DNA from: Dehalococcoidia bacterium
GTDB lineage: Bacteria; Chloroflexota; Dehalococcoidia; Lucifugimonadales; UBA3495
Assembly: GCA_034428455.1 (NCBI GenBank)
Contig: DAOUHZ010000161.1
Location: 3,459-67,458 of the forward strand
Direction of reading: 5' to 3'
Length of the DNA stretch: 64,000 nt
Position numbers and translations under genes: made by a program. The stretch's first letter is position 1, and each line of letters starts with the position of its first letter. The notes beneath the pieces are model-generated. The model saw only the letters and a program-made list of their open reading frames with translations. It made no database searches and was not told where the DNA came from. This document shows, one piece after another, positions 21,564 to 51,209 of this stretch.

Positions 21564-21607
21564 CGAGGAACCTTTTCCTGGCTCAGTGGGTTGAGCGGGC
21601 GGCGTCT

Positions 21608-24600
21608 TCAGCCCTCCGGCGTCGCGCTGAGGGCCAGCACCTCCCGCAGCTCGGTGTTCGAGAGTTCGGTGAGCCAGCGCTCAGAGGTTGCGCCCACCAC
21701 CTGGTCGGCGGTCTGCTGCTTGGTCTCGATCATAAGGTCGATGCGGTCTTCGAGGGTGCCGGCGCAGATCATTTTGTGTACGTGGACGTCCTTCGTTTGA
21801 CCGATGCGGAAGGCTCGGTCGGTGGCCTGATTTTCCACGGCGGGATTCCACCAGCGGTCGTAGTGGATGACGTGGTTGGCCCGAGGCAGGTTCAGGCCGG
21901 AGCCGCCCGCCTTCAGGGACAGGACGAACACCTGCGGGCCGTGGGGGTCGTTCTGGAACCGATCCACCATGATGTCGCGATTCTTGCGTGACACCCCGCC
22001 GTGGAGCATGGGCGTTTCGATGCCATAGGTTTCCTGGACGTGCTGCTGCAGAATGGCTCCCATCTCGGCGAACTGGCTGAAAATCAGGACGCGGTCGCCG
22101 GCGGGAATGATCTCGTCCAGCAACTCGTCGAGACGGGCCAGCTTCCCGGAGCGGCCGGCGATGGTCGAGTTGTCGCCCAGCAGTTGGCGAGGATGGTTGC
22201 AGACCTGCTTGAGCCTGACCAGCGTGTCGAGGATGGAGCCGCGGCGCTCCATGCCTTCGGCGTCGTCCAGTCGTGTCTCGACGTCGCGCAGCACGGCCTC
22301 GTAGAGGGTGACCTGCTCACGGGTGAGGTTGCAGTACTGCTTCGTCTCGTGCTTGTCAGGCAGGTCGTCGATGATTGTCGGGTCGGTCTTCAATCGGCGC
22401 AGGATGAACGGGCCGGTGGCTTTCTGCAGCCGTGCTGTCGCTTCGTCGTCCCGGTTGGCCTGGATGGGATTGAAATACCGGCGTTTGAACTCCGCCTGGG
22501 AGCCCAGCAGGCCGGGATTCAGGAACTGCATGATGGACCACAGGTCGCCCACGTGGTTTTCGACTGGCGTGCCCGTGAGGGCCATGCGGTAATCGGCGGG
22601 CAGAGAGCGGGCGGCTTGCGCCTGGCGCGTGGCGGTGTTCTTGATATTTTGAGCTTCGTCGACGGTGACAGAGCGCCAATCGACGGAAGCCAGCAACTCC
22701 CGATCCCGCGTCATGGTGCCGTAGCTGGTGATTACGATCTGATGCCTGGCGGCCTGTTGGGCGAACTGTTCGCCGCGCTCGCGGCCCGGTCCGTGGTGCA
22801 GCATCACCGCCAGGCTGGGCGTGAACTTCTGCGCTTCGCGCTGCCAATTGTTGATCACCGAGGTGGGGCAGACCAGCAGGTTGGGCTTCTCGTTGCCCTC
22901 CTGGTGGTCCCGCAGGATGGCGGCCAGGGTCTGGACGGTTTTGCCGAGACCCATGTCGTCGGCCAGGCAGGCGCCCAGTCCCCACCAGCGGAGGAAATCG
23001 AGCCACGAGTAGCCCAGTTGCTGGTAGGGGCGCAATTCGCCGCTGAATTCGGCGGGCAGGTCCAGCAGGCGTATCCGGCTCTTCTGCTGGAGGGAATCCA
23101 GCAACTCGCTGAGCCAGCCCGTGGTCGCCAGGGAGACGCGGTCGGCTTCCGCTTGCTGATCGGCGCCCAGGCCGATGCGGACCGCTTCCCGCAGGGTGAG
23201 CTGGTCACGGTTGCGCCAGAAGTCGGCGGCGGCTCGAATTTCGTCGGCGTCGATTTCGACCCACTGGCCGCGGAAGCGGACCAGCGGCACCTTCAGGTCG
23301 GCCAGTTCGAACAGTTCCTCAGCTTCGATCACCTCGTCGCCCATGGCGACTTGAACATCCAGGTCGATGAGCGACGCCATGGTCATGTTGACGCCGCCCT
23401 GCATCGGCGGCGTGCGTAGTTCGGCCCGGATGGTGGGGCGGTTCTTCGTACCCCGGCGTGTCCACCAGGCGGGCAGCATTACGCCGAAGCCCGCCTGCTG
23501 CAGCGCAGCCGCCTGCTGGGTGAGGAATTGGTGAGCCTGTTCAGCGTCGAGGGGCGCGCCGGCCGGCCTTCGCTGGTTCAGGCTGTCGGAGACGGGCGGA
23601 CATACGGAGCCGGCTTGGGCCAGGGAGGCGATCAGGAACTCGGCCGGATTGAAGTCGGGCGATTGTCGCTCCGAGGCGGTGTCAACGGGCAGCAACAGGC
23701 TGTGGTCGTCGTGGGGCTGGAGCAGGTAACGGAGGTACCAGTCCCGTTCACGCAGAGCGGCTGGTAGGTCGTCCTCGTCAGGTTCTGGCGGTTCTTCAAG
23801 ACGCAGGCACAGGCGGTAGGGGGAGTTGGCCGCCACCGCGATGGGCCGGTGCCATTCCGCCACCTGCCGGCGCAGCTGTTGCATCTGGGCGCCGTCGGCG
23901 TGTATTGCGCCGTCTGCCGTCGTCAGAGCGTGGAGCCAGGCGTCATGGGCCGAGTCGAACTCCGGAGCGCCTCCCTTGGCGTCCTGACGAACCATGTGGT
24001 TCACGATGCTGGAGATGAACTCCTTGAGAACGGCCTGCGGCGGGGTCGTTGGCGGCCGGTCCATTGAAGTGGTGGTCATGGATCGGGCAGAGGCCGGCAT
24101 CGCGCTGGCCAGTTCAGCTAATCGGTAGGCGTCGTCGCCGATGTAGAGCGGCGTCCACACGGCCTTGGTACCGTCCCCATGCCGCAAGACGTTGGGCAGG
24201 AATTGCTGTCGAACGGTGAGCCCGGCGGCGAAGAGCATGACGTGTCGCCAGTAGGCCACGTCGGGGCCCAGCAACGTGCCGGGCGTCAGCACGCGCCCAT
24301 TCTGGCAACCTTGCAGCAGTGCGATGGCCTGGGCGCTGGAAAGCCTGAGCGCCGGCACGCGCCAGGGCTTGATGCGGGGTTTGGCCCTCGATCTGGGCGC
24401 GGGACCCGCCAACGCTTCAGACGGTATCGGGTTGTTGCCGCGGCTGGGCAGCCAGATGGTGGCTTCCATCCCGGCGCCGGCGGGCTCATCTAGCGTATTG
24501 CCGACGGCTTCCGTCAAACGCGTGGCGTCCACGCAACGGGGATGGCGTCCGTCGAGCGCTTGGTCGGTATGCGGGTGTTGGTCGGAGGCCTCTGCCCAGA

Positions 24601-24643
24601 GGGTCAGTTGTCCGGCCAGTTGGGCGGCGTGGATGATGATCAT
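21608..24643 (-). CDS. SNF2-family DNA-dependent ATPase/helicase with a long N-terminal SNF2-associated region (HelZ/RapA-like)
   Basis: Motif I LADDMGLGKT. Motif II VTVDEAQNIKN. Helicase C block FVLSLKAGGSGLNL...HYDRWWNPAVENQATDRAFRIGQ. Start preferred at ATG 24643 (MIIIHAAQLAGQLTLWAE). The upstream part of the ORF track is Arg/Cys-rich and unlikely to be coding. Confidence 0.85.
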   Translation of the reverse strand: MIIIHAAQLAGQLTLWAEASDQHPHTDQALDGRHPRCVDATRLTEAVGNTLDEPAGAGMEATIWLPSRGNNPIPSEALAGPAPRSRAKPRIKPWRVPALRLSSAQAIALLQGCQNGRVLTPGTLLGPDVAYWRHVMLFAAGLTVRQQFLPNVLRHGDGTKAVWTPLYIGDDAYRLAELASAMPASARSMTTTSMDRPPTTPPQAVLKEFISSIVNHMVRQDAKGGAPEFDSAHDAWLHALTTADGAIHADGAQMQQLRRQVAEWHRPIAVAANSPYRLCLRLEEPPEPDEDDLPAALRERDWYLRYLLQPHDDHSLLLPVDTASERQSPDFNPAEFLIASLAQAGSVCPPVSDSLNQRRPAGAPLDAEQAHQFLTQQAAALQQAGFGVMLPAWWTRRGTKNRPTIRAELRTPPMQGGVNMTMASLIDLDVQVAMGDEVIEAEELFELADLKVPLVRFRGQWVEIDADEIRAAADFWRNRDQLTLREAVRIGLGADQQAEADRVSLATTGWLSELLDSLQQKSRIRLLDLPAEFSGELRPYQQLGYSWLDFLRWWGLGACLADDMGLGKTVQTLAAILRDHQEGNEKPNLLVCPTSVINNWQREAQKFTPSLAVMLHHGPGRERGEQFAQQAARHQIVITSYGTMTRDRELLASVDWRSVTVDEAQNIKNTATRQAQAARSLPADYRMALTGTPVENHVGDLWSIMQFLNPGLLGSQAEFKRRYFNPIQANRDDEATARLQKATGPFILRRLKTDPTIIDDLPDKHETKQYCNLTREQVTLYEAVLRDVETRLDDAEGMERRGSILDTLVRLKQVCNHPRQLLGDNSTIAGRSGKLARLDELLDEIIPAGDRVLIFSQFAEMGAILQQHVQETYGIETPMLHGGVSRKNRDIMVDRFQNDPHGPQVFVLSLKAGGSGLNLPRANHVIHYDRWWNPAVENQATDRAFRIGQTKDVHVHKMICAGTLEDRIDLMIETKQQTADQVVGATSERWLTELSNTELREVLALSATPEG

Positions 24644-25015
24644 GGCGGTTTTCTCTACGTCGGTTTTACTACGGGGGACATACCGTTGGAAAGAGCACGG
24701 GCAGTGGCCGGCGTCGCGGCACCAGTCCCCGCTCCGCTGGGAACAGCGCCTGCCCTTTCGCTGGCCTCTGAGGCGGAAACCCTGTGTGCTGGTCCGTTGC
24801 CCCCGCATCGCGGAAGAACCTTGCGCTTGCGGAAGTTCGTAGGCGCCATCCCCTGGGCGCCCTCCCTGGATTCGCGTCGACTTACGCTGCCGTTGAACAA
24901 GGGAATACTTTCGTCAAACGGGACGAGTGCTTGGCGGATCAACACGTTGCTGGGTTTACCCAGTGGGCGAGCCAGCTGGTCACTACTATTACAACGACGG
25001 GTTTAGGGCGTGTCG

Positions 25016-25444
25016 TCAAATTATTTTATTCCGGAGTGCGATGGCGCGGATTTGACAGTGAGCCAGGAAAGAAGCGGCCTTCTTGGCATATCGGTTCGCT
25101 ACCCCGCGCCATTGTTTGAAGTTGCAAAATCCATTCTCCACCAAGTGCCGTGCCTGGTATAAATCCCGGTCATATTCCCGCTGCTCCTGACGGTTGCTCG
25201 GAGGCGTTATCACCACGTTCATGCCACAATCCGATGCCGGGGCCACGATCCCATTGGTGTCGCACCCTTTGTCCGCCAGCAGATGCTCCGCCACAATACC
25301 TTCAATCAACGGCAATGCCTGGGTACAATCCGCCACCCTCCCTGCGGGAAGAACACCCAATCGTGAAAGTCCTTCAATCCCGTGAATCCCGATTCTGACG
25401 ACTGCCCGCCGCAAACCGGGTACGCATGAGATCGTTGCATTCAT
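25016..25444 (-). pseudogene. IS5-family transposase C-terminal fragment (N-terminal HTH and first catalytic region missing)
   Basis: LLADKGCDTNGIV...VITPPSNRQEQREYDRDLYQARHLVENGFCNFKQWRGVANRYAKKAASFLAHCQIRAI matches the IS5/IS427-type C-terminus (LLADKGYD...YK.R..VEN.F..LK..R.IATRYDK.A..FLA). Confidence 0.7.
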
Positions 25445-25485
25445 AACTGCGATGCAAACGCAACGGTACTATGCGCGAATCGTAA

Positions 25486-25514
25486 TTGACCCAAAATGGG
25501 CAGATTGCTACAAT
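25486..25514 (+). promoter_or_regulatory. Sigma-70-like promoter of P450-1
   Basis: TTGACC (25486-25491), a 17-nt spacer, then TACAAT (25509-25514) with TGC immediately upstream. RBS AGGGAGGG precedes ATG 25598. Confidence 0.55.
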
Positions 25515-25597
25515 TGGCCAAACGCGGCGACGATAGCCGCTGGTCATCGTATGTCCGGCGGTGAGTTTGACCATGAAAAGTCAACGGGAGGGACTTT

Positions 25598-26884
25598 ATG
25601 GTTACCACCTTTAACGAAAACCTGTTTTCCCCTGAAGTCATCCAGGATCCGTATACGTACTTCGGCCGGATGCGCGAGGAGGACCCGGTTCACTGGAATG
25701 ACCCCTACAAGCTGTGGGTCATCACCAAGTACAAGGACTTGGTCTGGGTAACCCGACGTCCTGAAGCATTCTCGTCCGAGGTCTTCCACCGGGACCCGCT
25801 GCCTCCATATCCTTCGATTGACGAATCCGACATGGGCCTCTACGAGGACGTGCGGAACTTCTTCAGCCAGTGGTTCATCCAGACCGACCGGCGCGCGGTG
25901 AGCACCCACGAGCACATTCGCGAGCACGGCGGCCCGGACCACACCGACATGCGGAAGGTCATCCACGGCTACTTCACGCCGAAGGCCATGGAACTCTGGC
26001 GCCCGCTGGTGCAGTCCGCCATCAATCAGTTGCTGGACGAAGCGGAAGAGCGCGGCAGCATGGACGTGATGCGAGACTATGCCACGCCGCTGCCCCTGCT
26101 GGTCATCGCCGCCATGATGGGCATCGAGACCTACGACCGGCAGTTCATCCGCTCGCTGGCGGAGAAGCTGCTGTTCATCGGTCGCGGCAACGCCGACCGC
26201 ATGCAGCCCCTGTCCGAAGGCATCACCGAGCTTCAGGACTACCTGCGGCCCATGGTCAAGGCCCGCCTGGACAACCCCAACGGCGACCTGCTGGACAAGA
26301 TGACCGACGCCGCCCGCACCACCAACGCGGCCGGACAGCGGATCATGGACGAGGAGCAGGTGGTGGCCAACGCCATCCTGCTGCTCCTGGCCGGTCATGA
26401 GACCACCATTAACCTGATCTGCAACGGCACCCGGGCGTTCATGGAGCACCCGGAGCAGTGGGAACTGTTCAAGAGCGACCCCGCCGGCAGGATGATCCGC
26501 GCCACCGAGGAGTGCCTGCGGTACGACCCGCCGGTCAAGTCCATCACCCGCATCGCCGGTGAGGACGTCGAACTGGGCGGCAAGCTCATCCAGAAGGACG
26601 AGCGGATGCGCTGGTTCGTCACCTCCGCCAACCGTGATCCCGAAGTGTTCGACCGCCCCGACGACTTCGACGTCGAGCGGTACCCGAACCCGCACGTGGC
26701 CTTTGGCAGCGGCATCCACCACTGCCTCGGCGCCACCCTGGCGCGGCTGGAAGGGCAGGAAGCGTTCAAGGCCCTGGCCGAGCGGTTCCCGAACCTCAAC
26801 ATGAGCTGCAACTCTGAGGACCTCACCTACACCTCCAGCATCACGTTCCGGACGCTGGAGACCCTGCCGGTGGCCCTGTCGTAA
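25598..26884 (+). CDS. Cytochrome P450 (paralog 1)
   Basis: I-helix LLLLAGHETTINLI. EECLRYDPP (ExxR). Heme loop HVAFGSGIHHCLGATLARLEGQE. Confidence 0.9.
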   Translation: MVTTFNENLFSPEVIQDPYTYFGRMREEDPVHWNDPYKLWVITKYKDLVWVTRRPEAFSSEVFHRDPLPPYPSIDESDMGLYEDVRNFFSQWFIQTDRRAVSTHEHIREHGGPDHTDMRKVIHGYFTPKAMELWRPLVQSAINQLLDEAEERGSMDVMRDYATPLPLLVIAAMMGIETYDRQFIRSLAEKLLFIGRGNADRMQPLSEGITELQDYLRPMVKARLDNPNGDLLDKMTDAARTTNAAGQRIMDEEQVVANAILLLLAGHETTINLICNGTRAFMEHPEQWELFKSDPAGRMIRATEECLRYDPPVKSITRIAGEDVELGGKLIQKDERMRWFVTSANRDPEVFDRPDDFDVERYPNPHVAFGSGIHHCLGATLARLEGQEAFKALAERFPNLNMSCNSEDLTYTSSITFRTLETLPVALS

Positions 26885-26913
26885 TCGGTTCGCAAATCCC
26901 CGCAGGATTACGA

Positions 26914-26947
26914 GGCCCGGCGAACATTCGCCGGGCCTTGGCTTTTG
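26914..26947 (+). terminator. Intrinsic terminator after P450-1
   Basis: GGCCCGGCG (26914-26922), loop AACATT, CGCCGGGCC (26929-26937), then TTGGCTTTTG. Confidence 0.6.
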
Positions 26948-26951
26948 TCGC

Positions 26952-26980
26952 TTGCGCGCACGGCGTACGGAGCCTATAAT
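26952..26980 (+). promoter_or_regulatory. Candidate promoter of P450-2
   Basis: TTGCGC (26952-26957), a 17-nt spacer, then TATAAT (26975-26980) followed by CGG. Confidence 0.45.
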
Positions 26981-27052
26981 CGGCGCATCACAGCAGTTTT
27001 ATCTGCGTAATTCGTCGGCAAATCGCGTGTCGCACACCGGAGGTCGCAGGAA

Positions 27053-28312
27053 ATGGTTAGCACAATCAACGACAATCCGTTCTCCCTGGAAGCGATGTAC
27101 CAGCCCTACGAATTCTTCGCGCGTCTGCGCGATTGGGAGCCGGTGCACTACAACGAGGAGTATGAAGTCTGGATGGTCACGGACTGGGAGCACCTGGTAT
27201 GGGTGACCCGGCACCCGGAGGTCTTCTCGTCCAGCGTGTTCGCCCGGGACCCCCGGCCGCCGAACCCGCCCATCGACGAAGACGACATGGAGATCTACAA
27301 CTACATCAAGAAGTGGCAGGTTTCCCGGTTCATCCAGCACGACCAGAAGCGGTACAACCCCGGGGTCAGCGGTCCCGACCACGTGGACATGCGCCGGGTG
27401 ATGCATGGCTACTTCACCCCCAAGTCCATGGAGATGTGGCGGCCGCTAGTACAGTCCGCCATCGATGAATTGCTTGACGTAGTGCAGGAAAAAGGCCGCA
27501 TGGACGTGATGGCCGACCTGGCCACGCCGCTGCCCCTGCTGGTCATCGCCCGGATGCTGGGCATCCCGGACAGCGACCGCCCCATCATGCGCCGGCTGGC
27601 CAAGGATCTGCGTCACCTGAACCGGACGGGCCCGAACCGCATGGGTCCCTTGTCCGAATCGGTGCAAAATTTGCAGGACTACCTGGGTCCGTTGTGCGAC
27701 GAGCGCATCGCCAACCCCAAGGACGACCTGATCTCGGTGGTTGCCGAGGGGGCGCGTCGGGGCATTTTCGACCGCGACATGGTCGTGAACAACGTGATGC
27801 TGCTGCTGTCCGCAGGCCACGAGACCACCATCAACCTGATCTGCAACGGCACGCTGGCCTTCACCCAGCACCCGGACCAGTGGGAGATCCTGAAGTCGGA
27901 TCCCGAAGGCAAGACCGTGCGCGCCACCGAAGAATGCCTGCGGTACGACTCGCCGGTGAAGTCCATCCAGCGCATCGCCATGGAGGACATGGAGCTCAAC
28001 GGCCAGCAGATAAAGGAGAATGACCGGGTGCGGTGGTTCATCTCCGGGGCCAACCGCGACCCCAAGGTGTTCGACCGGGCGGACGACTTTGACGTCGAAC
28101 GCTACCCCAACATGCACGTGGCCTTCGGCAGCGGCATCCACCACTGCCTCGGCGCAACCCTGGCCCGCCTGGAAGGTCAGGAGATCTTCCGCAACCTGGC
28201 CAACCGCTTCGAGAGCCTGGAACTGGAAGTGCCGGCCGAGACGCTGGAATACGACCAGCTGATCGGCCTGCGGGCGCTGGAATCGCTGCCAGTGACGGTG
28301 ACCAACGCGTAA
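27053..28312 (+). CDS. Cytochrome P450 (paralog 2)
   Basis: LLLSAGHETTINLI, EECLRYDSP, HVAFGSGIHHCLGATLARLEGQE. Roughly four-fifths identical to paralog 3 by eye. Confidence 0.9.
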   Translation: MVSTINDNPFSLEAMYQPYEFFARLRDWEPVHYNEEYEVWMVTDWEHLVWVTRHPEVFSSSVFARDPRPPNPPIDEDDMEIYNYIKKWQVSRFIQHDQKRYNPGVSGPDHVDMRRVMHGYFTPKSMEMWRPLVQSAIDELLDVVQEKGRMDVMADLATPLPLLVIARMLGIPDSDRPIMRRLAKDLRHLNRTGPNRMGPLSESVQNLQDYLGPLCDERIANPKDDLISVVAEGARRGIFDRDMVVNNVMLLLSAGHETTINLICNGTLAFTQHPDQWEILKSDPEGKTVRATEECLRYDSPVKSIQRIAMEDMELNGQQIKENDRVRWFISGANRDPKVFDRADDFDVERYPNMHVAFGSGIHHCLGATLARLEGQEIFRNLANRFESLELEVPAETLEYDQLIGLRALESLPVTVTNA

Positions 28313-28340
28313 CCGCGCAACGTCGACATCAGGCGCTGCG

Positions 28341-28376
28341 GTGCGCCGGGGAAGTGGATAACCCTCCCCGGCGCAC
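28341..28376 (+). terminator. Stem-loop after P450-2
   Basis: 12-bp stem GTGCGCCGGGGA (28341-28352) / TCCCCGGCGCAC (28365-28376), then TCATTTAT. Confidence 0.5.
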
Positions 28377-28526
28377 TCATTTATGTTGCAGTCTGGGCGG
28401 CCGACGGACTGTTTGGTGCGCGAACGACTGCACTCCGCGCGAATATCGGTTATAATCGGCCAATCTGGAGGCGCTGCGGGCTGTTGGGCCGGCAGCGGTG
28501 TCAACGTACCACCGGAGGTACAACCA

Positions 28527-29798
28527 ATGGTAACCACCTTCAACGACAATCCGTTTTCACCGGAAGCGATCTATAAGCCGTATGATTTTTACAACCGGCT
28601 GCGAGAACACCAGCCGGTGTACTACAACGAGCAGCTCGAGGTGTGGATGATCACCTCGTGGGAGCATCTGGTGTGGGTCACCAGGCATCCGGAGGCGTTC
28701 TCGTCCAGCGTGTACGCCCGGGACACGCGCGCCCCGAACCCACCGATCGATGAAGACGACATGGAACTCTACAACTTCATCAAGAAGTGGCAGGTTTCCC
28801 GCTTCATCCAGCATGACCAGAAGCGGTACAACCCTGATGTCAGCGGCGCGGACCACATCGACATGCGGCGGGTGATGCACGGCTACTTCACCCCCAAGTC
28901 AATCGAAATGTGGCGGCCCCTGGTGCAATCGGCCATCGACGAGTTGCTGGACGCCGTGGAAGAGAAGGGTCGCATGGACGTGATGGCCGATCTGGCCACG
29001 CCGCTGCCCTTGCTGGTTATCGCCCGGATGCTGGGCATCCCAGACAGCGAGCGGGAGCGCCTGCGGGAACTGGCCAAAGACCTGCGGTTCCTCAACCGTG
29101 AAGGCCCCGACCGGATGAAGCCGCTAACCCAGGCCGTGCAAAACCTTCAGGACTTCATCGCGCCGATGGTGGAGGACCGGATCAGCAATCCCGAGAACTT
29201 TGATGCCACTGACCTGATGTCCGTGGTCTGCGAAGGCGAGCGGCAGGGCGTGTTCAATCGGGACATGACCGTCAACAACATCATGCTGTTGCTGTCCGCC
29301 GGACACGAGACCACCATCAACCTGATCTGCAACGGCACGCTGGCGTTCACCCAGCACCCGGACCAGTGGGGCATCCTGAAGTCCGATCCGGAAGGCAAGA
29401 CCGTCCGCGCCACCGAAGAAGCCCTGCGCTACGACTCGCCGGTGCGGTCAATCCAGCGCATCGCTATGGATGACATCGAGCTGAACGGCCAGTTGATCAA
29501 GAAGGATGACCGGGTCCGCTGGTTCATTCCCGGGGCCAACCGCGACCCCAAGGTTTTTGACCGCGCCGATGACTTTGACATCGAGCGGTACCCGAACCAG
29601 CACGTCGCCTTCGGCAGCGGTGTCCATCACTGCCTGGGCGCCACGCTGGCGCGCCTGGAGGGTCAGGAGATCTTCCGCAACCTGGCCAACCGCTTCGAGA
29701 AAGTCGAGCTGGAGATCCCGGTGGAACAGGTGGAATACGACCACGTGCTCACCTTCCGCGCGGTGGAGAGCCTCCCGGTGAAGGTGACCAGCGCCTAG
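28527..29798 (+). CDS. Cytochrome P450 (paralog 3)
   Basis: Start at ATG 28527 (MVTTFNDNPFSPEAI, same N-terminus as paralogs 1 and 2), preceded by GGAGG. LLLSAGHETTINLI. HVAFGSGVHHCLGATLARLEGQE. Confidence 0.9.
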   Translation: MVTTFNDNPFSPEAIYKPYDFYNRLREHQPVYYNEQLEVWMITSWEHLVWVTRHPEAFSSSVYARDTRAPNPPIDEDDMELYNFIKKWQVSRFIQHDQKRYNPDVSGADHIDMRRVMHGYFTPKSIEMWRPLVQSAIDELLDAVEEKGRMDVMADLATPLPLLVIARMLGIPDSERERLRELAKDLRFLNREGPDRMKPLTQAVQNLQDFIAPMVEDRISNPENFDATDLMSVVCEGERQGVFNRDMTVNNIMLLLSAGHETTINLICNGTLAFTQHPDQWGILKSDPEGKTVRATEEALRYDSPVRSIQRIAMDDIELNGQLIKKDDRVRWFIPGANRDPKVFDRADDFDIERYPNQHVAFGSGVHHCLGATLARLEGQEIFRNLANRFEKVELEIPVEQVEYDHVLTFRAVESLPVKVTSA

Positions 29799-29825
29799 CC
29801 TTCATCATCCGCGTCGCACGTAAAG

Positions 29826-29856
29826 AGCCGGTGGCCCCTTTCAATGGCCACCGGCT
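29826..29856. terminator. Convergent (bidirectional) terminator hairpin between P450-3 and the minus-strand cassette
   Basis: 11-bp stem AGCCGGTGGCC (29826-29836) / GGCCACCGGCT (29846-29856). Followed by TGTCTTGTC on the plus strand and CTCTTTAC on the minus strand. Confidence 0.5.
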
Positions 29857-29881
29857 TGTCTTGTCGGCTCGGACTAAACGG

Positions 29882-30130
29882 TTAGTGATCAGTGTAGAGA
29901 GATTCCAAGGCAGCCTCGATTTCAACGCGGCTGATGCCGATTTTTGACAAGTTGAATGCCAGGTCGTCAAACGGCACGTCCCAGCCATCAACAACCACGG
30001 TGATGACATCGTCACCTGTTGCGCTGATATAGACTGCATACCCTCCGAAGCGTTCTATTTCCTCTATGCCGAGCCGGGCGAGTATCCCGCTCACTTCAAG
30101 CCAGTTCAGGTTAGCGCCATCAGGTGGCAA
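29882..30130 (-). CDS. Hypothetical 82-aa protein, partner of the HicB-like gene (weak HicA/YcfA-like resemblance only)
   Basis: Overlaps the upstream gene by 11 nt. Visibly lower G+C than the flanking P450 genes. GILARLGIEEIERFGGYAVY...VITVVVDGWDVPFDDLAFNLSKIGISRVEIEAAL has a HicA-like layout but no GSH-type His. Confidence 0.4.
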   Translation of the reverse strand: MPPDGANLNWLEVSGILARLGIEEIERFGGYAVYISATGDDVITVVVDGWDVPFDDLAFNLSKIGISRVEIEAALESLYTDH

Positions 30131-30479
30131 TCAGCACCTCTTCAAGGCTCACTTCGGCTGCTAGGCCTTCACGATAAGCGGCGATGTCCTCCTGGAGAGG
30201 TAATGTAGCGAACCCCGTTTGACAGGTCGTATTCTGGCCGTCCCCCTGGTTGCTGTAATAGCGTACCTGGCGTTTTTCTAGAAAACGACCGATGGCTTCC
30301 ATGTTGCCATGAAAGCTGCCCAGCAACGCGGTCAATGCCTTGTTCACTTCCAACCGGGCAGCTTGGCGTGTTTCACCGTAAACTGTGAACCCGAACTGAG
30401 GGGAGCGGCAGGCCCAGCGGTCCGATCTTTTCTCGGTCTCTACCGTAATGTGCATTGAGATTTTAGCCATCGCCTTCAT
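30120..30479 (-). CDS. HicB-like / DUF1902-like (UPF0150 fold) protein
   Basis: ISMHITVETEKRSDRWACRSPQFGFTVYGETRQAARLEVNKALTALL fits the HicB N-domain pattern (..W.A.SP...G....GET.eEA......A...ll). Lower G+C. TGTTACAAT extended -10 and a GGGAG RBS lie upstream. Confidence 0.45.
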   Translation of the reverse strand: MKAMAKISMHITVETEKRSDRWACRSPQFGFTVYGETRQAARLEVNKALTALLGSFHGNMEAIGRFLEKRQVRYYSNQGDGQNTTCQTGFATLPLQEDIAAYREGLAAEVSLEEVLIAT

Positions 30480-30570
30480 CTCCCAATTTCCATATCATTT
30501 GCAGTTTGAATTGTAACATCGCTTGTGATAATTTTGACCTCAGCCCGGCCCGCAGTATGAGGGATTGACC

Positions 30571-31800
30571 ATGCCCCCCAGCATCCACGACGACCTGTTC
30601 GCCGCCGAGGCGATCCGCGATCCGTACGGCTATTTTGGAGCCCTGCGGGCCGAAGCGCCGGTTCACTGGAACGAGCAGTACCAGATGTGGGTGGTAACCA
30701 GCTACGAGCGGTTGGTGTGGACGGCCCGGCATCCGGAATACTTCTCCTCCGAAGTGGCGCTGCGGGACAACGCCCCGCCTTCTCCGTCTATTCCGGAAGA
30801 GGACATGGAACTGTTCGCCGCAGTGCGTCAGTGGCGGGCCGCCCAGTTCACCCAGAATGATGGCGCCAAGCACAAGGAAAAGCGCAAGATTGTTCATGGG
30901 TACTTCACTCCGAAAGCCATGGAGACCTGGCGTCCGCTGGTCCGCCAGACCGTGAACGACCTGTTGGACGATCTTCAGGGCGCGGGCCGCATGGACGTAA
31001 TGCACGATTTCGCCACGCCGCTGACGTACAGCATCATCGCCAGCCTGATGGACATACCGCCCAGCGACCGGAATTTCGTCAAGGAATTGTGCGGCCGGAT
31101 GTGCGGGTTCGACGGCAACCAACCGGACCGGATCCGCATGTACGCGGAGGGAGTGCAAGCCGTTACCGATTACCTCGCCCCCATCGTGGCCGAGCGCGTC
31201 CGGGAGCCTGGCGACGACCTGCTGTCGGTGATCTGCAAAGGCGAGATCATGGGCGCCTACACCCGGGACGAGGTGTTAGCGAACGCGCTGCTGCTGCTGG
31301 TCGCCGGACACGAAACCACCAACGACCTGATTTCCAACGGAGTGCTGGCCTTCGCCCAACACTCCGACCAGTTTGACCTGCTGAGAACCGACCCTGACGC
31401 CCACATCGTAAACGCCGTGGAAGAAGTACTGCGGTACGATTCGCCCCTGAAATCCATCCAGCGAGTCGCGACGCGGGATGTGGATATGGGCGACGGCCAG
31501 CGCGTGGGCAAGGACGACCGCGTTCGGTGGGTGATTTCGTCGGCCAACCGGGATCCCGAGGTTTTCGAAGAGCCGGACGGCCTGGATATCACGCGAAACC
31601 CGAACCCCCACGTGGCCTTCGGCAGCGGCGTTCACCACTGCCTGGGGGCGACCCTGGCGCGGTTGGAGGGACAGGAAGCCTTCGCCGAATTGGCCCGCCG
31701 CTTCGAGGGATTCGAGCTGGAAACCGATCCCAACGAGTTGGAATACCTGCCCAGCGTGGGGCAGCGCACCCTGCTGAACCTGCCGGTTGCGACACGCTAG
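30571..31800 (+). CDS. Cytochrome P450 (paralog 4)
   Basis: LLLVAGHETTNDLI, EEVLRYDSP, HVAFGSGVHHCLGATLARLEGQE. I prefer ATG 30571 over the TTG at 30565. Confidence 0.9.
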   Translation: MPPSIHDDLFAAEAIRDPYGYFGALRAEAPVHWNEQYQMWVVTSYERLVWTARHPEYFSSEVALRDNAPPSPSIPEEDMELFAAVRQWRAAQFTQNDGAKHKEKRKIVHGYFTPKAMETWRPLVRQTVNDLLDDLQGAGRMDVMHDFATPLTYSIIASLMDIPPSDRNFVKELCGRMCGFDGNQPDRIRMYAEGVQAVTDYLAPIVAERVREPGDDLLSVICKGEIMGAYTRDEVLANALLLLVAGHETTNDLISNGVLAFAQHSDQFDLLRTDPDAHIVNAVEEVLRYDSPLKSIQRVATRDVDMGDGQRVGKDDRVRWVISSANRDPEVFEEPDGLDITRNPNPHVAFGSGVHHCLGATLARLEGQEAFAELARRFEGFELETDPNELEYLPSVGQRTLLNLPVATR

Positions 31801-31869
31801 CAGCCGGCCGCCGCAATCGATATAGCGAACACTCTCGGTTCGCCTGACCATCACGAGGAGGTTACCCCG

Positions 31870-32094
31870 ATGGCCCGACAGTTGAAAATCACCGTGGACT
31901 ACAACGTGTGCGTGGGCAACGCCATGTGCGAGACCTTCGCGGAAAACACCTTTGGCCTGAACGATGACCGTCAGTCTTACGTCAAGGACCCGGCCGGCGA
32001 CCCCGAGGACACCATCATCGAAGCAGCTGAGAACTGCCCGGTTACGGCCATCACCGTGGAAGACGCGGAGACCGGGGAGATTTTGTTCCCGTAG
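31870..32094 (+). CDS. Small single-cluster ferredoxin (P450 redox-partner type)
   Basis: 74 aa. VDYNVCVGNAMCETFAENTF...AAENCPVTAITVED (CxxxxC...CP cluster ligands). GAGGAGG RBS. 69 nt after P450-4. Confidence 0.75.
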   Translation: MARQLKITVDYNVCVGNAMCETFAENTFGLNDDRQSYVKDPAGDPEDTIIEAAENCPVTAITVEDAETGEILFP

Positions 32095-32121
32095 AAAGTC
32101 CGCATCCAACCGGATACCGTG

Positions 32122-32152
32122 GGGGCGAATGATTATTCGCCCCTACATTTTT
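32122..32152 (+). terminator. Intrinsic terminator after the ferredoxin gene
   Basis: GGGGCGAAT (32122-32130), loop GATT, ATTCGCCCC (32135-32143), then TACATTTTTG. Overlaps the last codons of the convergent LLM gene. Confidence 0.6.
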
Positions 32153-33144
32153 GCGACCACTTCCTCGCCGAACCTGCGAATAATATCCGCCGGATCATGG
32201 CTGATGGCGGTGATCTGCAAAACGTCGGCGCCGGACGCGCCGATCTGGACAACCTTGGCGCGGCATTCCTCGGGAGTGCCAACCACGGCGAACCGGTCGG
32301 CCAGATAGTCGGTCACGCCGAGCTCATCCGATAACGCGGCGTTGCGCGTCTCGCCAACCTGCTCGTGTTCCGCCGGAACGTACTCCCCCTGGATGATCTG
32401 CATCGCCTCGTGAAGCTCGGGCGGGACGTGCTTGCCTTCCAAAGTGAAGCGGAAGGCGTGATGCGCGCTGGCGGCGAGGGCCATGCGGATCTCGTCGATT
32501 GCGGCGGCATGGTCATCTGCAATGTTGCACTTGGCGAAGGCCCAGACCTCCGTGGACCCCGCCGGCTTGCCCGCGTCGGCCTCGCCTTCTCGGATGCGCG
32601 ACACAGTGTCATCCAATATCTCCCGCGTCAGACCGGTGTGGATCATCACCCGGTCGGCGATTTCGCCGGCCATGCGCAAAGTCTGCGGGCCTTCCGCCGA
32701 CATCATGATGGGCACCGAGTTATTGCTCCAGCGCACGTGGCCCTCGCGACCCAGGTACTCCGCAGTTTCCCCGGCCAGGAAGGCGCGGACGGCAGCCACG
32801 TAGTTACCCAACGCCCGCATACGCGCTGGCCGGAGCCCCAAGTTCAGGATCGCGCTGTCGCCGGTGCCAATGCCAAGAAACGCCCGTCCCTCCGACAGCT
32901 CCTGTAGCGACGCGATTGCTGAAGCGGTCACCGCCGGATGTCGGGTCAGCGGATTGGTAACCGACGGCCCAAGGTGGACTCGCGAGGTGTCGGTGGCGGC
33001 CACGGCCAGGGAGACGAAAAGCTCGCGGAAGAGCGATTGCGAGTCCGCGACGCCGATGTAGTCGAATCCGACATCCTCGGCCAGGCGAACGTGCCGACGA
33101 AAGGACTCGTAGGAACTGGGCAGGAGGGTTACGCCGTATTTCAT
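32143..33144 (-). CDS. Luciferase-like monooxygenase / F420-dependent oxidoreductase (LLM class)
   Basis: MKYGVTLLPS...VGFDYIGVADSQS...LGPSVTNPLTRHPAVTASAIASLQELSEGRAFLGIGTGDS. Start is uncertain: ATG 33144 (4 nt after the rmuC stop), or 33171 / 33180. Confidence 0.8.
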   Translation of the reverse strand: MKYGVTLLPSSYESFRRHVRLAEDVGFDYIGVADSQSLFRELFVSLAVAATDTSRVHLGPSVTNPLTRHPAVTASAIASLQELSEGRAFLGIGTGDSAILNLGLRPARMRALGNYVAAVRAFLAGETAEYLGREGHVRWSNNSVPIMMSAEGPQTLRMAGEIADRVMIHTGLTREILDDTVSRIREGEADAGKPAGSTEVWAFAKCNIADDHAAAIDEIRMALAASAHHAFRFTLEGKHVPPELHEAMQIIQGEYVPAEHEQVGETRNAALSDELGVTDYLADRFAVVGTPEECRAKVVQIGASGADVLQITAISHDPADIIRRFGEEVVAKM

Positions 33145-33148
33145 TGCT

Positions 33149-34402
33149 TTAAGCCGCTCTTGAGTGGTCATCCGGGGCAAACGTCAGCCGCCGCACGTTG
33201 TCCGATATAATTTCGGGAGGATGGAGATTTCCGGGATCCCCCACGCCTAACTCGGCCATTCGGCGCGCCGAGACCATTACGCTGCTTTCCAAAGTTCCCA
33301 CGGTAGTATTGAAGGCAGTGACCGTTTGATTTATGCGCTGCCGCAAAGTCGAGTAATTATCGACGAAGCGTAGTAGCCGTTGGTGCATTTCGGCGCCAAT
33401 GACGCGGATTTGTTCCGCGTTTTGAGCCAGTTCCTGTTGCTGCCAACCATTGTTCACAGCCCAGAGCATAGCGATCAGCGATGCCGGCGTGGCAATTGCC
33501 ACCCGACGACTCATCGCATACTCAACCAGATCAGGACTGGATTTCAGTGCCGCTGCCAGGAACTGGTCCCCTGGCACGAACATCACTACGAAGTCCAGAG
33601 CTCCGTCAACCTTGTCGCCGTACCGCTTGCTGCTCAAGCCGTTAACTTGATTCCGCAGCGCGCCGGCGTGCCGCTGCCAGGCTGCATCAGCAACTGCTTC
33701 ATCACCTGCCTGACTGGCTTCCATGTAGGCGGCCGTGGATGCTTTGGCATCTACCACTATGGCTCGGCGCTCGGGCAAGTTAATTACCATGTCAGGACGG
33801 TCCTGAGAGTTCCCGGTGGTTTCCTGTTCCGAGAAATCGCAGTATGAGGTCATGCCGGCCAAATCAACAACCCGCCGCAATTGAATCTCTCCCCAATTCC
33901 CCACCGCACGATTGTCACCGCGCAGAGCGCCGGACAAATTTGCCGTTTCGGCAGTTATTGAATGCAACTGCTCCCCCAGCTGCTCAATTTTGGGGTTGAG
34001 GTTGCCATAGTTTTCCACTAGAGGTTGGACCAGTGTCTGAAACTGCTGGTGCCGTTGGTCGAACTCATTGCGGGCGCGTTCCAGATTCTGGCCCATGCTT
34101 TCGTTGGCCAATTGCAGGAATTGGTTGTTGCTGTTTTGCAGAACCTTGCTCGCCGTCGCCTCAAATTCTATTCCCAGCTGCTCTTTGGCATTGTCAACAA
34201 TCTCCTGCGCAGTCGTCATCTGTTCCAGACGGCCATTCAACTCGGCAACTCTTTCTCGATGCGTGTTTTCCTGGTCTCGATGGGCGGTTTCCAGGCTTGC
34301 TATCTTGCGATGGTCAAGTATGCTGACTACAACGTAGCCGATGATAAGGCCAATCACCAAGCCAATGCCGACGCCAGCGATAAGTTCAATAGATATTTCC
34401 AT
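33149..34402 (-). CDS. rmuC: DNA recombination protein RmuC
   Basis: N-terminal TM helix, long coiled coil, and the C-terminal RmuC nuclease-like block RPDMVINLPERRAIVVDAKAS...FVVMFVPGDQFL. Confidence 0.8.
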   Translation of the reverse strand: MEISIELIAGVGIGLVIGLIIGYVVVSILDHRKIASLETAHRDQENTHRERVAELNGRLEQMTTAQEIVDNAKEQLGIEFEATASKVLQNSNNQFLQLANESMGQNLERARNEFDQRHQQFQTLVQPLVENYGNLNPKIEQLGEQLHSITAETANLSGALRGDNRAVGNWGEIQLRRVVDLAGMTSYCDFSEQETTGNSQDRPDMVINLPERRAIVVDAKASTAAYMEASQAGDEAVADAAWQRHAGALRNQVNGLSSKRYGDKVDGALDFVVMFVPGDQFLAAALKSSPDLVEYAMSRRVAIATPASLIAMLWAVNNGWQQQELAQNAEQIRVIGAEMHQRLLRFVDNYSTLRQRINQTVTAFNTTVGTLESSVMVSARRMAELGVGDPGNLHPPEIISDNVRRLTFAPDDHSRAA

Positions 34403-51002: not shown

Positions 51003-51209
51003 AAAAACCCTCCTGTTGACTGGTGACACGCGTCGGCCAAAAAGTTAGTACGGTGGGCCGATTATACACCCCTGACGAGCGTACCGCGCTCGGTTTGTCC
51101 AACTGCCCACCTCCGTCGTGCCAACCCTACCGAGGCAGGCCGTCTCCGAACCCGGTGCTATACTGCCGCCAAGCTGACAGCATGATGCCGCCACTCGGCG
51201 GACACAGAA

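What the first reader, a model, noticed from the sequence alone, without database searches (positions are those of the whole stretch)
25486..32152. Tandem array of four cytochrome P450 paralogs ending in a single ferredoxin, each with its own promoter/terminator signals
Seen: four co-directional P450 genes (25598, 27053, 28527, 30571) followed by one 74-aa ferredoxin. All four share HVAFGSG[IV]HHCLGATLARLEGQE, AGHETT and E[EC/EV/EA]LRYD[SP]P, and paralogs 1-3 share the N-terminus MV[ST]T[FI]N[ED]N. Paralogs 2 and 3 are about four-fifths identical by eye, and they even share a -10/discriminator TATAATCGG and the RBS context CACCGGAGGT. This suggests the duplicated unit included its own expression signals. 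Paralogs 1 and 4 are roughly half identical to them. Hairpin terminators follow paralogs 1, 2 and 3 and the ferredoxin. No ferredoxin reductase is present in the window. A dead IS5 fragment abuts the array and an LLM oxidoreductase converges on it. Established: P450 systems need ferredoxin plus a reductase, and tandem paralog expansion usually reflects substrate diversification. Inference: a recently expanding oxygenase battery for structurally diverse, possibly recalcitrant, substrates, with a shared redox partner.
Basis: partly seen in the sequence, partly recalled or inferred. Interest (0 to 1): 0.7.

Follow-up and report, generated by a model that had tools for sequence, protein, structure and literature searches.

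The report
Conserved P450 gene array, shared ferredoxin
Four related cytochrome P450 oxygenase genes plus one small ferredoxin form an old, well-conserved gene block in an uncultured SAR202-type marine bacterium (probably a sponge symbiont), and each gene appears to have its own on/off signals; it is a solid but fairly ordinary example of enzyme-family expansion, not a recent one.

Summary
Four co-directional P450 genes (25598, 27053, 28527, 30571) and a 74-aa ferredoxin (31870-32094) are there, with the quoted motifs. P2 and P3 are 80% identical, P1 is 58% identical to them, and P4 is 50-51% identical to the rest.

The window is not actinobacterial. It matches Dehalococcoidia/SAR202 metagenome-assembled genomes. 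The same array, ferredoxin and convergent luciferase-like oxidoreductase occur in all 51 related species-level genomes, with 3, 4 or 5 P450 copies.

Each paralog forms its own orthologous clade. P2-P3 dS is 0.71 and orthologs show dN/dS of 0.04-0.15. The expansion is therefore old and under purifying selection, not recent.

Comparison across species supports separate expression signals. Every P450 has a conserved -35/-10 pair, and P1, P2, P3 and the ferredoxin are followed by strong hairpins whose sequences differ between species. P4 and the ferredoxin look co-transcribed. Unrelated genes have inserted between units in many species.

The ferredoxin has the known CxxNxxC...CP motif of P450-partner [3Fe-4S] ferredoxins. 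No ferredoxin reductase is in the window, and the substrate is unknown.

Verdict: a new member of a known kind, of moderate interest.

The parts
25016..25444 (-). Truncated IS5-family transposase remnant abutting the array
   Evidence: Pfam DDE_Tnp_1 partial match. NCBIfam NF033580 matches positions 145-256 of 258 at 77 bits, below the 110-bit cutoff. Shorter remnants lie at the same site in L002, L006 and L010.
25486..25514 (+). P1 promoter-like site TTGACC-17-TGCTACAAT
   Evidence: Found by the consensus scan. TTGACC, a 17-nt spacer (18 nt in one locus) and TA[CAG]AAT are present in 51/51 related loci, 76-86 nt upstream of the ATG.
25598..26884 (+). P450 paralog P1 (428 aa)
   Evidence: PF00067 E=1e-24. 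Orthologs at 83-98% identity in all 51 loci.
26911..26940 (+). Terminator-like hairpin after P1, followed by TTTTG
   Evidence: A strong hairpin lies within 90 nt of the stop codon in 50/51 loci.
26952..26980 (+). P2 promoter-like site TTGCGC-17-TATAAT(CGG)
   Evidence: TATAAT with a 17-nt spacer (18 nt in two loci), 68-72 nt upstream of the ATG, in 43/44 loci.
27053..28312 (+). P450 paralog P2 (419 aa)
   Evidence: PF00067. 80% identical to P3. Orthologs at 88-100% identity in 44 loci.
28341..28376 (+). Terminator-like hairpin after P2
   Evidence: A strong hairpin is present in 46/46 loci, with 42 distinct sequences.
28429..28459 (+). P3 promoter-like site; the conserved core is AAATCGGTTATAATCGG, with the -10 hexamer at 28451-28456
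   Evidence: The block is nearly invariant in the alignment. TATAAT is found in 48 of 51 loci and TTTAAT in one more.
28527..29798 (+). P450 paralog P3 (423 aa)
   Evidence: PF00067. Orthologs at 85-98% identity.
29826..29856 (+). Terminator-like hairpin after P3
   Evidence: A strong hairpin is present in 47/49 loci.
29882..30479 (-). Inserted two-gene cassette (82 aa and 119 aa, overlapping by 11 nt) of unknown function; not part of the P450 system
   Evidence: No hits in Pfam, NCBIfam or PADLOC. Present at the same site in 17/51 loci at 44-95% identity. The 119-aa protein has only 26 homologs in the 5.8-billion-protein database. Fold matches to HicB-like proteins are weak and local.
30506..30532 (+). 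P4 promoter-like site TTGAAT-15-GATAAT with an extended -10 (TGTGATAAT)
   Evidence: The block is conserved in 46/51 loci by pattern, with near-variants in the other five.
30571..31800 (+). P450 paralog P4 (409 aa), probably co-transcribed with the ferredoxin
   Evidence: PF00067. Only 3/51 loci have a strong hairpin downstream. In the P4-ferredoxin spacer only the RBS is conserved.
31870..32094 (+). Ferredoxin, 74 aa, single-cluster type with the motif CVGNAMC...CP
   Evidence: PF13370. The motif is identical in 58/58 orthologs. It aligns to the P. furiosus ferredoxin with Asn in place of Asp/Cys. It belongs to the class described in PMC6237146.
32119..32146 (.). Hairpin between the convergent ferredoxin and LLM genes (likely a bidirectional terminator)
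   Evidence: A strong hairpin follows the ferredoxin in 51/51 loci.
32143..33180 (-). Luciferase-like (LLM) oxidoreductase, syntenic with the array; its functional link to the array is not shown
   Evidence: PF00296. Present in 51/51 loci at 78-96% identity. The closest solved structures are F420-dependent Mer. NCBIfam F420-LLM models match but below their cutoffs.

Best explanation
This is a lineage-conserved battery of three to five paralogous P450 monooxygenases from a single CYP family. It lies in the chromosome of an uncultured Dehalococcoidia/SAR202 bacterium, probably a sponge symbiont.

Each P450 is its own transcription unit: promoter, a 40-85-nt leader, the gene, then a hairpin terminator. 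The exception is the last paralog, P4, which is co-transcribed with a 74-aa CxxNxxC...CP ferredoxin.

The proposed mechanism is a class I P450 system. The ferredoxin, probably a [3Fe-4S] type, passes electrons one at a time to all the paralogs. It receives them from a reductase encoded elsewhere in the genome.

The paralogs most likely hydroxylate a set of related organic substrates in catabolism. They may be regulated separately.

Shown: gene content, conservation, age of the duplications, purifying selection, and conserved promoter and terminator motifs. Inferred: actual transcription pattern, cluster type, electron route, and substrate and physiological role.
For: Identity of the parts:
- PF00067 and PF13370 hits, intact heme-Cys loop, AGHETT and ExxR in 215-216 of 216 copies.
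- The ferredoxin motif CVGNAMC..CP is identical in 58/58 orthologs. This motif class is shown experimentally to be [3Fe-4S] P450 partners in M. marinum (PMC6237146).

Organism: loci at 79-100% identity are all Dehalococcoidia, Chloroflexota or SAR202 MAGs.

Conservation and age:
- The array plus ferredoxin plus LLM is present in 51/51 species-level genomes.
- The paralogs form clean orthogroups.
- P2-P3 dS is 0.71, and ortholog dN/dS is 0.04-0.15.

Separate transcription units:
- Conserved -35/-10 pairs sit at fixed distances from each ATG, in 51/51, 9/9, 43/44, 49/51 and 46/51 loci.
- Strong hairpins follow P1, P1b, P2, P3 and the ferredoxin in 96-100% of loci where the sample is large (P1b 8/9), but follow P4 in only 3/51. 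There are 42-51 different hairpin sequences per site.
- Median hairpin energy is -30.1 kcal/mol against -16.0 for shuffled sequence.
- Opposite-strand genes, an IS element and toxin-antitoxin-like genes have inserted between the hairpin and the next promoter in many species without loss of the P450s.

Catabolic leaning:
- No biosynthetic core genes lie within 10 kb in any locus; the flanks are housekeeping genes.
- Alphaproteobacterial relatives carry one P450-ferredoxin pair next to a TetR regulator, an amidohydrolase_2, an SDR and a Rieske oxygenase.

Functional divergence: there are 15 fixed P2/P3 differences, clustered in the F/G region and at residues 403-406.
Against: - There are no transcript data. 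The promoters and terminators are sequence predictions supported only by conservation.
- P1-P3 need the ferredoxin, which sits behind P4. Expression must therefore be coordinated somehow, and read-through cannot be excluded.
- No reductase and no regulator are in the window or in any of the 51 loci, so the electron source is unknown.
- No substrate evidence exists. The nearest solved structures (BioI, PksS) are only about 36% identical and act in biosynthesis, not catabolism.
- The LLM neighbour may simply be syntenic. In the two-copy variant L061 the nearby LLMs are only 24-25% identical to it.
- The sponge origin rests on one protein label (Geodia barretti) and on my recollection of MAG names.
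Confidence: 0.7

Rival explanations
1. The array is a single read-through operon. The five genes are transcribed mainly from the P1 promoter. The intergenic hairpins act as mRNA stabilisers, processing sites or leaky attenuators, and the internal TATAAT boxes add little.
For: All genes point the same way. Only one ferredoxin gene exists, at the far end, and P1-P3 depend on it. The P1 promoter is the closest to consensus (TTGACC-17-TGnTACAAT). T-runs after several hairpins are short or interrupted.
Against: In 17/51 species a minus-strand two-gene cassette sits between P3 and P4. In others an ISAs1 element, a SocA/Panacea pair or a 389-aa gene sits between other units, always between the hairpin and the next promoter. 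The -35/-10 pairs upstream of P2, P3 and P4 are among the few invariant blocks in otherwise diverged spacers. Spacers of 135-240 nt are conserved, in contrast to the 65-80-nt P4-ferredoxin spacer, which has no hairpin.
Confidence: 0.2
2. The array is a recently expanding oxygenase battery. The duplications are young and ongoing, driven by current substrate diversification.
For: Copy number does vary between species, from 3 to 5. In L039 and L040 the third slot holds a P2-like copy. Short stretches of P2 and P3 are more alike (93%) than their orthologs in other species (88%), which hints at occasional gene conversion.
Against: P1, P2, P3 and P4 each form a clade spanning 44-51 species-level genomes. 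P2-P3 dS is 0.71 and the other pairs are at 0.7-1.1, near saturation. Orthologs are 85-100% identical and show dN/dS of 0.04-0.15. A two-copy version exists in a more distant lineage.
Confidence: 0.05
3. The P450s are tailoring enzymes of a secondary-metabolite pathway, decorating a polyketide, terpenoid or peptide made elsewhere, rather than catabolic enzymes.
For: The nearest solved structures are biosynthetic P450s: BioI, PksS, CxnD, TamI and PikC. CxxNxxC-type ferredoxins are often linked to secondary metabolism (PMC6237146).
Against: No PKS, NRPS, terpene synthase or other core gene lies within 8-10 kb in any of the 51 loci. The flanks are RNase III, DsbA, PdxS/T and Tmk on one side and aroC/aroE on the other. 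Identity to the biosynthetic P450s is only about 36%. The alphaproteobacterial relatives sit in catabolic-looking clusters.
Confidence: 0.15

Closest known systems
CYP genes paired with CXX?XXC(X)nCP [3Fe-4S] ferredoxins in Mycobacterium marinum and M. tuberculosis (Child et al. 2018, PMC6237146), e.g. Fdx4(Asn)/CYP269A1 and CYP138A4
   Same: A small (62-97 aa) acidic single-cluster ferredoxin with Asn at the variable motif position lies next to P450 genes. The reductase is encoded elsewhere. One ferredoxin can lie next to two CYPs.
   Different: Here one ferredoxin follows three to five paralogs of the same CYP family. The host is Chloroflexota, not Actinobacteria. The cluster type and activity are untested. 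Each P450 has its own promoter and terminator.
Paralog expansions of oxidative enzymes in SAR202 (Landry et al. 2017, PMC5395668; Saw et al. 2020, PMC6946804)
   Same: The same bacterial clade, and the same theme of many paralogous oxygenases (FMNO/luciferase-like enzymes, Baeyer-Villiger monooxygenases, P450s) proposed to attack recalcitrant organic matter. The window also holds an LLM and a BVMO-like gene.
   Different: Those papers mention P450 only in general terms (CYP125-like) or, for PMC6946804, apparently not at all (zero occurrences in the search table; the paper itself was not opened). They describe dispersed families in pelagic genomes. This is a fixed tandem array with a dedicated ferredoxin, conserved across a set of MAGs that appear to be sponge-associated.
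BioI (CYP107H1, PDB 3ejb) and PksS (CYP107K1, PDB 4yzr), the closest solved structures
   Same: Full-length alignment with E-values of 1e-65 to 1e-69, and the same heme loop, I-helix and ExxR signatures.
   Different: P4 is only 36% identical to BioI, below the 40% convention for a shared CYP family. Both of these enzymes are biosynthetic.
The P450cam system of the Pseudomonas putida CAM plasmid (camDCAB under CamR); from my own knowledge
   Same: Class I logic: a P450 plus a small ferredoxin plus an FAD reductase, used to start catabolism of an alicyclic compound. Luciferase-like monooxygenases act later in that pathway.
   Different: In CAM, the P450, reductase, ferredoxin and regulator are in one operon and the ferredoxin is a [2Fe-2S] type. 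Here there is no reductase or regulator, there are several P450 paralogs, the units are monocistronic, and the ferredoxin is a 3Fe/4Fe type.
GPP34-P450 fusion proteins specific to sponge symbionts (PMC11706023)
   Same: A P450-family feature enriched in sponge-associated bacteria, including Dehalococcoidia.
   Different: The four proteins here are plain 409-428-aa P450s with no GPP34 domain, and no GPP34 hit was seen in the window.

Membership tests
Cytochrome P450 superfamily (PF00067) | Pfam PF00067 score above the gathering threshold | tested here: met
   82.8-94.2 bits against a cutoff of 22.8, for all four proteins.
Cytochrome P450 superfamily (PF00067) | Heme-thiolate loop FxxGxHxCxG, I-helix acid-alcohol pair (A/G)Gx[ED]T[TS], and K-helix ExxR | tested here: met
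   FGSG[IV]HHCLG, AGHETT and EExLR are present in all four. They are found in 216/216, 215/216 and 216/216 of the copies from related loci.
Cytochrome P450 superfamily (PF00067) | Heme binding and the 450-nm CO-difference spectrum | not testable with these tools
   This needs purified protein.
CYP107 family (nomenclature rule: more than 40% identity to members) | At least 40% amino-acid identity to a named CYP107 member | tested here: not met
   P4 against BioI (CYP107H1) is 36% over 401 columns. Only members with solved structures were compared, and the CYP nomenclature database was not available.
One CYP family, with subfamilies, among the four paralogs | More than 40% identity defines the same family; more than 55% defines the same subfamily | tested here: met
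   All pairs are at 50-80%. P1, P2 and P3 are at 58-80% (one subfamily). P4 is at 50-51.5% (a second subfamily).
Class I (three-component) bacterial P450 system | A ferredoxin gene associated with the P450 | tested here: met
   The ferredoxin starts 69 nt after P4, and is present in 51/51 loci.
Class I (three-component) bacterial P450 system | An NAD(P)H-dependent FAD ferredoxin reductase | tested here: not met
   None is present in the 64-kb window or in the 20-kb loci. It may be encoded elsewhere; a whole-genome search was not possible.
CXX?XXC(X)nCP P450-partner ferredoxins (PMC6237146) | Motif CXXNXXC...CP in a single-cluster ferredoxin of about 60-100 aa, next to a CYP gene | tested here: met
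   CVGNAMC...NCP in a 74-aa protein with PF13370. The motif is identical in 58/58 orthologs.
CXX?XXC(X)nCP P450-partner ferredoxins (PMC6237146) | Contains a [3Fe-4S] cluster and supports CYP turnover | not testable with these tools
   This needs spectroscopy and reconstitution.
Sigma-70-type promoter plus intrinsic terminator for each gene | A -35/-10 pair with a 15-18-nt spacer upstream, and a GC-rich hairpin downstream, conserved in relatives | tested here: met
   This is sequence evidence only.
Sigma-70-type promoter plus intrinsic terminator for each gene | Transcription actually starts and stops at these sites | not testable with these tools
   No transcript data are available.
LLM-class F420-dependent oxidoreductase (the neighbouring gene) | PF00296 domain, plus a score above the cutoff of an F420-specific NCBIfam model | tested here: inconclusive
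   PF00296 scores 168 bits. The best NCBIfam models (Mer, TIGR03842) score 158-169 bits, below cutoffs of 276-349. The closest PDB entries are F420-dependent Mer.
HicB/HicA-like toxin-antitoxin pair (the inserted 119-aa and 82-aa ORFs) | A match to HicB or HicA sequence families, or a clear fold match | tested here: inconclusive
   No hits in Pfam, NCBIfam or PADLOC. The AlphaFold model has pLDDT 75. The best Foldseek hits are HicB-like proteins (3kwr, 3k6q) but cover only 33-47 columns with E-values of 0.25 or worse.

The most novel reading that the evidence does not exclude
The array could be a hallmark, symbiosis-linked trait of a sponge-associated SAR202 lineage. On this reading it is a modular set of separately regulated P450s fed by one Asn-type [3Fe-4S] ferredoxin, and it oxidises host-derived alicyclic or aromatic compounds such as sponge sterols, terpenoids or brominated aromatics. 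Its terminator-promoter gaps would also serve as safe landing sites where toxin-antitoxin, defence and IS elements repeatedly integrate.
Probability: 0.2. Interest if true: 0.55.

Novelty: new member of a known kind. Interest (0 to 1): 0.35.

Why it matters
SAR202 bacteria are abundant in the deep ocean and in sponges. They are thought to oxidise hard-to-degrade organic matter using expanded families of oxygenases. Their P450s have only been mentioned in passing, and I found no paper describing this array.

A block of P450 paralogs with a dedicated ferredoxin, conserved across 51 species-level genomes and under purifying selection, gives a defined and clonable target for testing what these uncultured bacteria actually oxidise.

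The layout of one promoter and one terminator per gene, tolerant of insertions, is also a tidy natural example of modular gene organisation.

It does not change how P450 systems are understood.

Tried and rejected
- **Actinobacterial origin.** I assumed this from the GC content and the P450-ferredoxin style. It was rejected because all close loci are Dehalococcoidia/SAR202 MAGs.
- **Riboswitch or known RNA in the leaders and spacers.** Rfam at E<=1 found nothing in 24800-33300.
- **Conserved secondary structure in the 83-nt P1 leader.** RNAalifold gave only a 4-bp stem at -0.17 kcal/mol, so this is not supported.
- **NCBIfam naming of the P450s.** All matches are far below their cutoffs; the best is Cyp119 at 204 bits against 680.
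- **The LLM as a functionally coupled partner across lineages.** In the two-copy variant L061 the nearby LLMs are only 24-25% identical to the window's LLM, so adjacency may be plain synteny in an LLM-rich genome.
- **The inserted cassette as a known toxin-antitoxin or defence system.** No hits in Pfam, NCBIfam or PADLOC, and the fold search was weak.
- **T-run counts after hairpins.** These were unreliable, because the folding window absorbed the T-run into the stem. I rely on hairpin energy and on the P4 and shuffled controls instead.
- **Ferredoxin reductase in the window.** The only candidate (9796-11208) is of the lipoamide dehydrogenase/MerA class, with a dimerisation domain, not the ferredoxin-reductase type.

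Full report

Yes. ORF listing and translation give four co-directional P450 genes:
- P1, 25598-26884, 428 aa
- P2, 27053-28312, 419 aa
- P3, 28527-29798, 423 aa
- P4, 30571-31800, 409 aa

A 74-aa ferredoxin follows at 31870-32094. All four P450s pass Pfam PF00067 and the ferredoxin passes PF13370. Global alignments give P2-P3 80.0%, P1-P2 58.5%, P1-P3 57.7% and P4 against the others 50-51.5%.

The heme loop, AGHETT and EExLRYD[SP]P motifs are as quoted. TATAATCGG and CACCGGAGGT each occur exactly twice in the region, just upstream of P2 and P3. Hairpins follow P1, P2, P3 and the ferredoxin.

The IS fragment is a C-terminal remnant of an IS5-family transposase. A luciferase-like oxidoreductase converges on the ferredoxin. 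No ferredoxin-reductase-type gene is among the window's large ORFs.

Two overlapping minus-strand ORFs (29882-30130, 82 aa; 30120-30479, 119 aa) sit between P3 and P4, so the array is interrupted.

**2. Whose genome is it?**

It is not an actinobacterium. A scan of one genome per species found 51 loci (L002-L052) encoding a 79-100% identical P2 or P3 relative. All are labelled Dehalococcoidia, Chloroflexota/Chloroflexi or 'SAR202 cluster bacterium' MAGs. An identical copy of the array lies on a JGI metagenome contig.

One cluster representative carries an NCBI label from the sponge Geodia barretti. Several MAG names look like sponge-microbiome bins to me. That is my recollection, not a test.

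**3. How old and how conserved is the array?**

I ran tblastn of the window's proteins against the 51 loci. The P450 array, the ferredoxin and the convergent LLM gene are present in all 51, always tandem and in the same order. Copy number varies:
- Three copies, with no P2, in seven genomes.
- Four copies in most genomes.
- Five copies, with a second P1-like gene, in nine genomes.

A neighbour-joining tree of 216 copies resolves clean orthogroups for P1 (two subtypes), P2, P3 and P4. The duplications therefore predate the split of these species.

Nei-Gojobori estimates agree. P2-P3 has dN 0.128 and dS 0.71. Window-versus-other-species orthologs have dS 0.28-1.23 and dN/dS 0.04-0.15. The copies are old and each is kept by purifying selection. 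'Recently expanding' is not supported.

Some turnover does occur:
- At least L049 looks like a secondary loss of P2.
- L039 and L040 carry a P2-like gene in the P3 slot.
- A stretch around nt 781-900 is 93% identical between P2 and P3 of the window but 88% identical between P2 orthologs. This hints at occasional gene conversion.

More distant relatives show simpler versions. A different Dehalococcoidia-like 3.4-Mb contig has two P450s plus the ferredoxin. Soil Alphaproteobacteria (Stellaceae) have one P450 (57-63% identical) followed about 20 nt later by the ferredoxin (65-74% identical).

**4. Are the expression signals real?**

I aligned every intergenic spacer across the loci. The spacers are largely diverged except for three kinds of block.

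(a) A -35/-10 pair at a fixed distance from each ATG:

| Gene | Motif | Loci |
|---|---|---|
| P1 | TTGACC-17-TA[CAG]AAT, with a TGn extension | 51/51 |
| P1b | TTGACA-17-TA[CG]GAT | 9/9 |
| P2 | TTGCnn-17-TATAAT | 43/44 |
| P3 | AAATCGGTTATAATCG | 49/51 |
| P4 | TTGAAT-15-TGTGATAAT or close variants | 46/51 |

(b) The ribosome-binding sites.

(c) A GC-rich hairpin soon after each stop codon. Its sequence differs between species, but the pairing is kept.

Strong hairpins (dG <= -12 kcal/mol) occur as follows:
- after P1 in 50/51 loci
- after P1b in 8/9
- after P2 in 46/46
- after P3 in 47/49
- after the ferredoxin in 51/51
- after P4 in only 3/51

The median energy is -30.1 kcal/mol, against -16.0 for shuffled sequence. 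The P4-ferredoxin spacer (65-80 nt) conserves only the RBS.

The most economical reading is five transcription units: P1, (P1b), P2, P3 and P4-ferredoxin.

Insertions give independent support. In 17/51 species the minus-strand two-gene cassette lies between the P3 hairpin and the P4 promoter. Elsewhere, several other genes lie between other units, and the flanking hairpin and promoter stay intact:
- an ISAs1 transposase (L017)
- a SocA/Panacea antitoxin pair (L023, L027)
- a 389-aa gene weakly like the PADLOC candidate PDC-S11 (L024, L036)
- a PaREP1-like gene (L043)
- a 229-aa unknown (L008, L013)

All of this is sequence evidence. Transcripts were not available, and some read-through cannot be excluded.

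The shared TATAATCGG, the roughly 70-nt leader and the ACCGGAGGT RBS of P2 and P3 fit duplication of a whole promoter-gene unit.

**5. How does it most likely work?**

The ferredoxin carries CVGNAMC...CP, identical in all 58 orthologs. It aligns to the Pyrococcus furiosus ferredoxin with Asn where that protein has Asp, and where 4Fe ferredoxins have Cys. Child et al. (PMC6237146) showed that such CXX?XXC(X)nCP ferredoxins lie next to CYP genes in many bacteria, contain [3Fe-4S] clusters, and support their CYPs when given a reductase.

By analogy, this ferredoxin would serve all the paralogs, with a reductase encoded elsewhere. None is in the window or in the loci.

The substrate is unknown:
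- The closest solved structures are BioI and PksS (E about 1e-65 to 1e-69), but identity is only 36%. These proteins fall outside CYP107 by the 40% convention.
- Among themselves they form one family with two subfamilies.
- NCBIfam gives no name.

A catabolic role is favoured weakly. No biosynthetic core genes lie within 8-10 kb in any locus, and the flanks are RNase III, DsbA, PdxS/T and Tmk on one side and aroC/aroE on the other. The alphaproteobacterial single-copy relatives sit beside a TetR regulator, an amidohydrolase_2, an SDR and a Rieske oxygenase.

P2 and P3 differ at 15 positions that are each fixed within their orthogroups. These include LIGL to VLTF at 403-406 near the C-terminal hairpin, and several in the F/G region. 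Overall divergence is concentrated at residues 1-40 and 160-240. This pattern fits a shift in substrate recognition, but it does not prove one.

The neighbouring LLM is most like F420-dependent Mer enzymes. Its link to the P450s is not established.

**6. Comparison with what is known**

Landry et al. (PMC5395668) noted 'several versions' of P450 in pelagic SAR202, alongside expanded FMNO families. They proposed oxidation of recalcitrant organic matter. Bayer et al. on sponge SAR202 (PMC6306507) do not mention P450.

A 2025 paper reports GPP34-P450 fusions specific to sponge symbionts (PMC11706023). The proteins here have no such domain.

I found no description of this array. Tandem P450 paralogs with a nearby small ferredoxin are, however, a familiar arrangement in bacteria.

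**7. Verdict**

The finding is a new member of a known kind. It is a conserved, modular P450 paralog array with an Asn-type ferredoxin in a SAR202 lineage. Interest is moderate (0.35). It offers a concrete handle on SAR202 oxidative metabolism, but nothing in it is mechanistically surprising.

Noticed in passing
window 29882-30479 (minus strand): A two-gene cassette (82 aa and 119 aa, overlapping by 11 nt) is inserted between the P3 terminator and the P4 promoter. It is present at the same site in only 17/51 related species, at 44-95% identity, so it has diverged far more than the flanking P450s. The 119-aa protein has only 26 homologs among 5.8 billion proteins, none of them named. Its AlphaFold model (pLDDT 75) gives only weak, local HicB-like fold matches.
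   Followed up: partly
L017:11392-12528; L023:8854-9727; L024:8637-9806; L043:9347-9769; L008:11353-12042: In other species the gaps between P450 units hold different inserted genes: an ISAs1 transposase, a SocA/Panacea antitoxin with a small partner, a 389-aa protein weakly like the PADLOC candidate PDC-S11, a PaREP1-like protein, and a 229-aa unknown. The terminator-promoter gaps seem to act as tolerated insertion sites.
   Followed up: partly
window 20727-25444; L002, L006 and L010 upstream of P1: The SWIM and SNF2-helicase genes upstream of the IS5 remnant are found only in the window and in the identical JGI contig. Most related species have RNase III, DsbA, PdxS/T and thymidylate kinase there instead. 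Remnants of the same IS, 24-32 aa long, survive at the same spot in three related species. This suggests an old IS insertion followed by a rearrangement.
   Followed up: partly
window 27833-27952 versus 29307-29426 (approximately nt 781-900 of P2 and P3); L039 and L040 third P450: The I-helix region of P2 and P3 is 93% identical at the DNA level within the window, more than P2 is to its ortholog in L014 (88%). In L039 and L040 the gene in the P3 slot groups with P2. Both observations hint at occasional gene conversion between the paralogs.
   Followed up: partly
L053-L059 (Alphaproteobacteria/Stellaceae MAGs): The nearest relatives outside Chloroflexota have a single P450 (57-63% identical) followed about 20 nt later by the same CVGNAMC ferredoxin (65-74% identical). 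This pair is flanked by a TetR regulator, an amidohydrolase_2, an SDR and a Rieske ring-hydroxylating oxygenase, which looks like a catabolic cluster.
   Followed up: partly
L061:6577-9486: A two-copy version of the array lies on a 3.4-Mb contig in a different genomic context rich in luciferase-like genes. It has a P1-like P450 (66%), a P2-like P450 (62%) and the ferredoxin (76%), again with a hairpin between the P450s and a TTGACC-type promoter upstream.
   Followed up: partly
window 49368-51029 (minus strand) and 16610-19540 (plus strand): The window also encodes other oxidative enzymes: a Baeyer-Villiger/FMO-like flavin monooxygenase, and a 976-aa FAD-linked oxidase with Fe-S/CCG domains. 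This fits the oxygenase-rich SAR202 gene repertoire.
   Followed up: no
window 25515-25597: The 83-nt leader of P1 is partly conserved across species. It includes a GTTTGACC...GTCAAC stretch just before the RBS. It has no Rfam match, and RNAalifold found no convincing consensus structure.
   Followed up: yes
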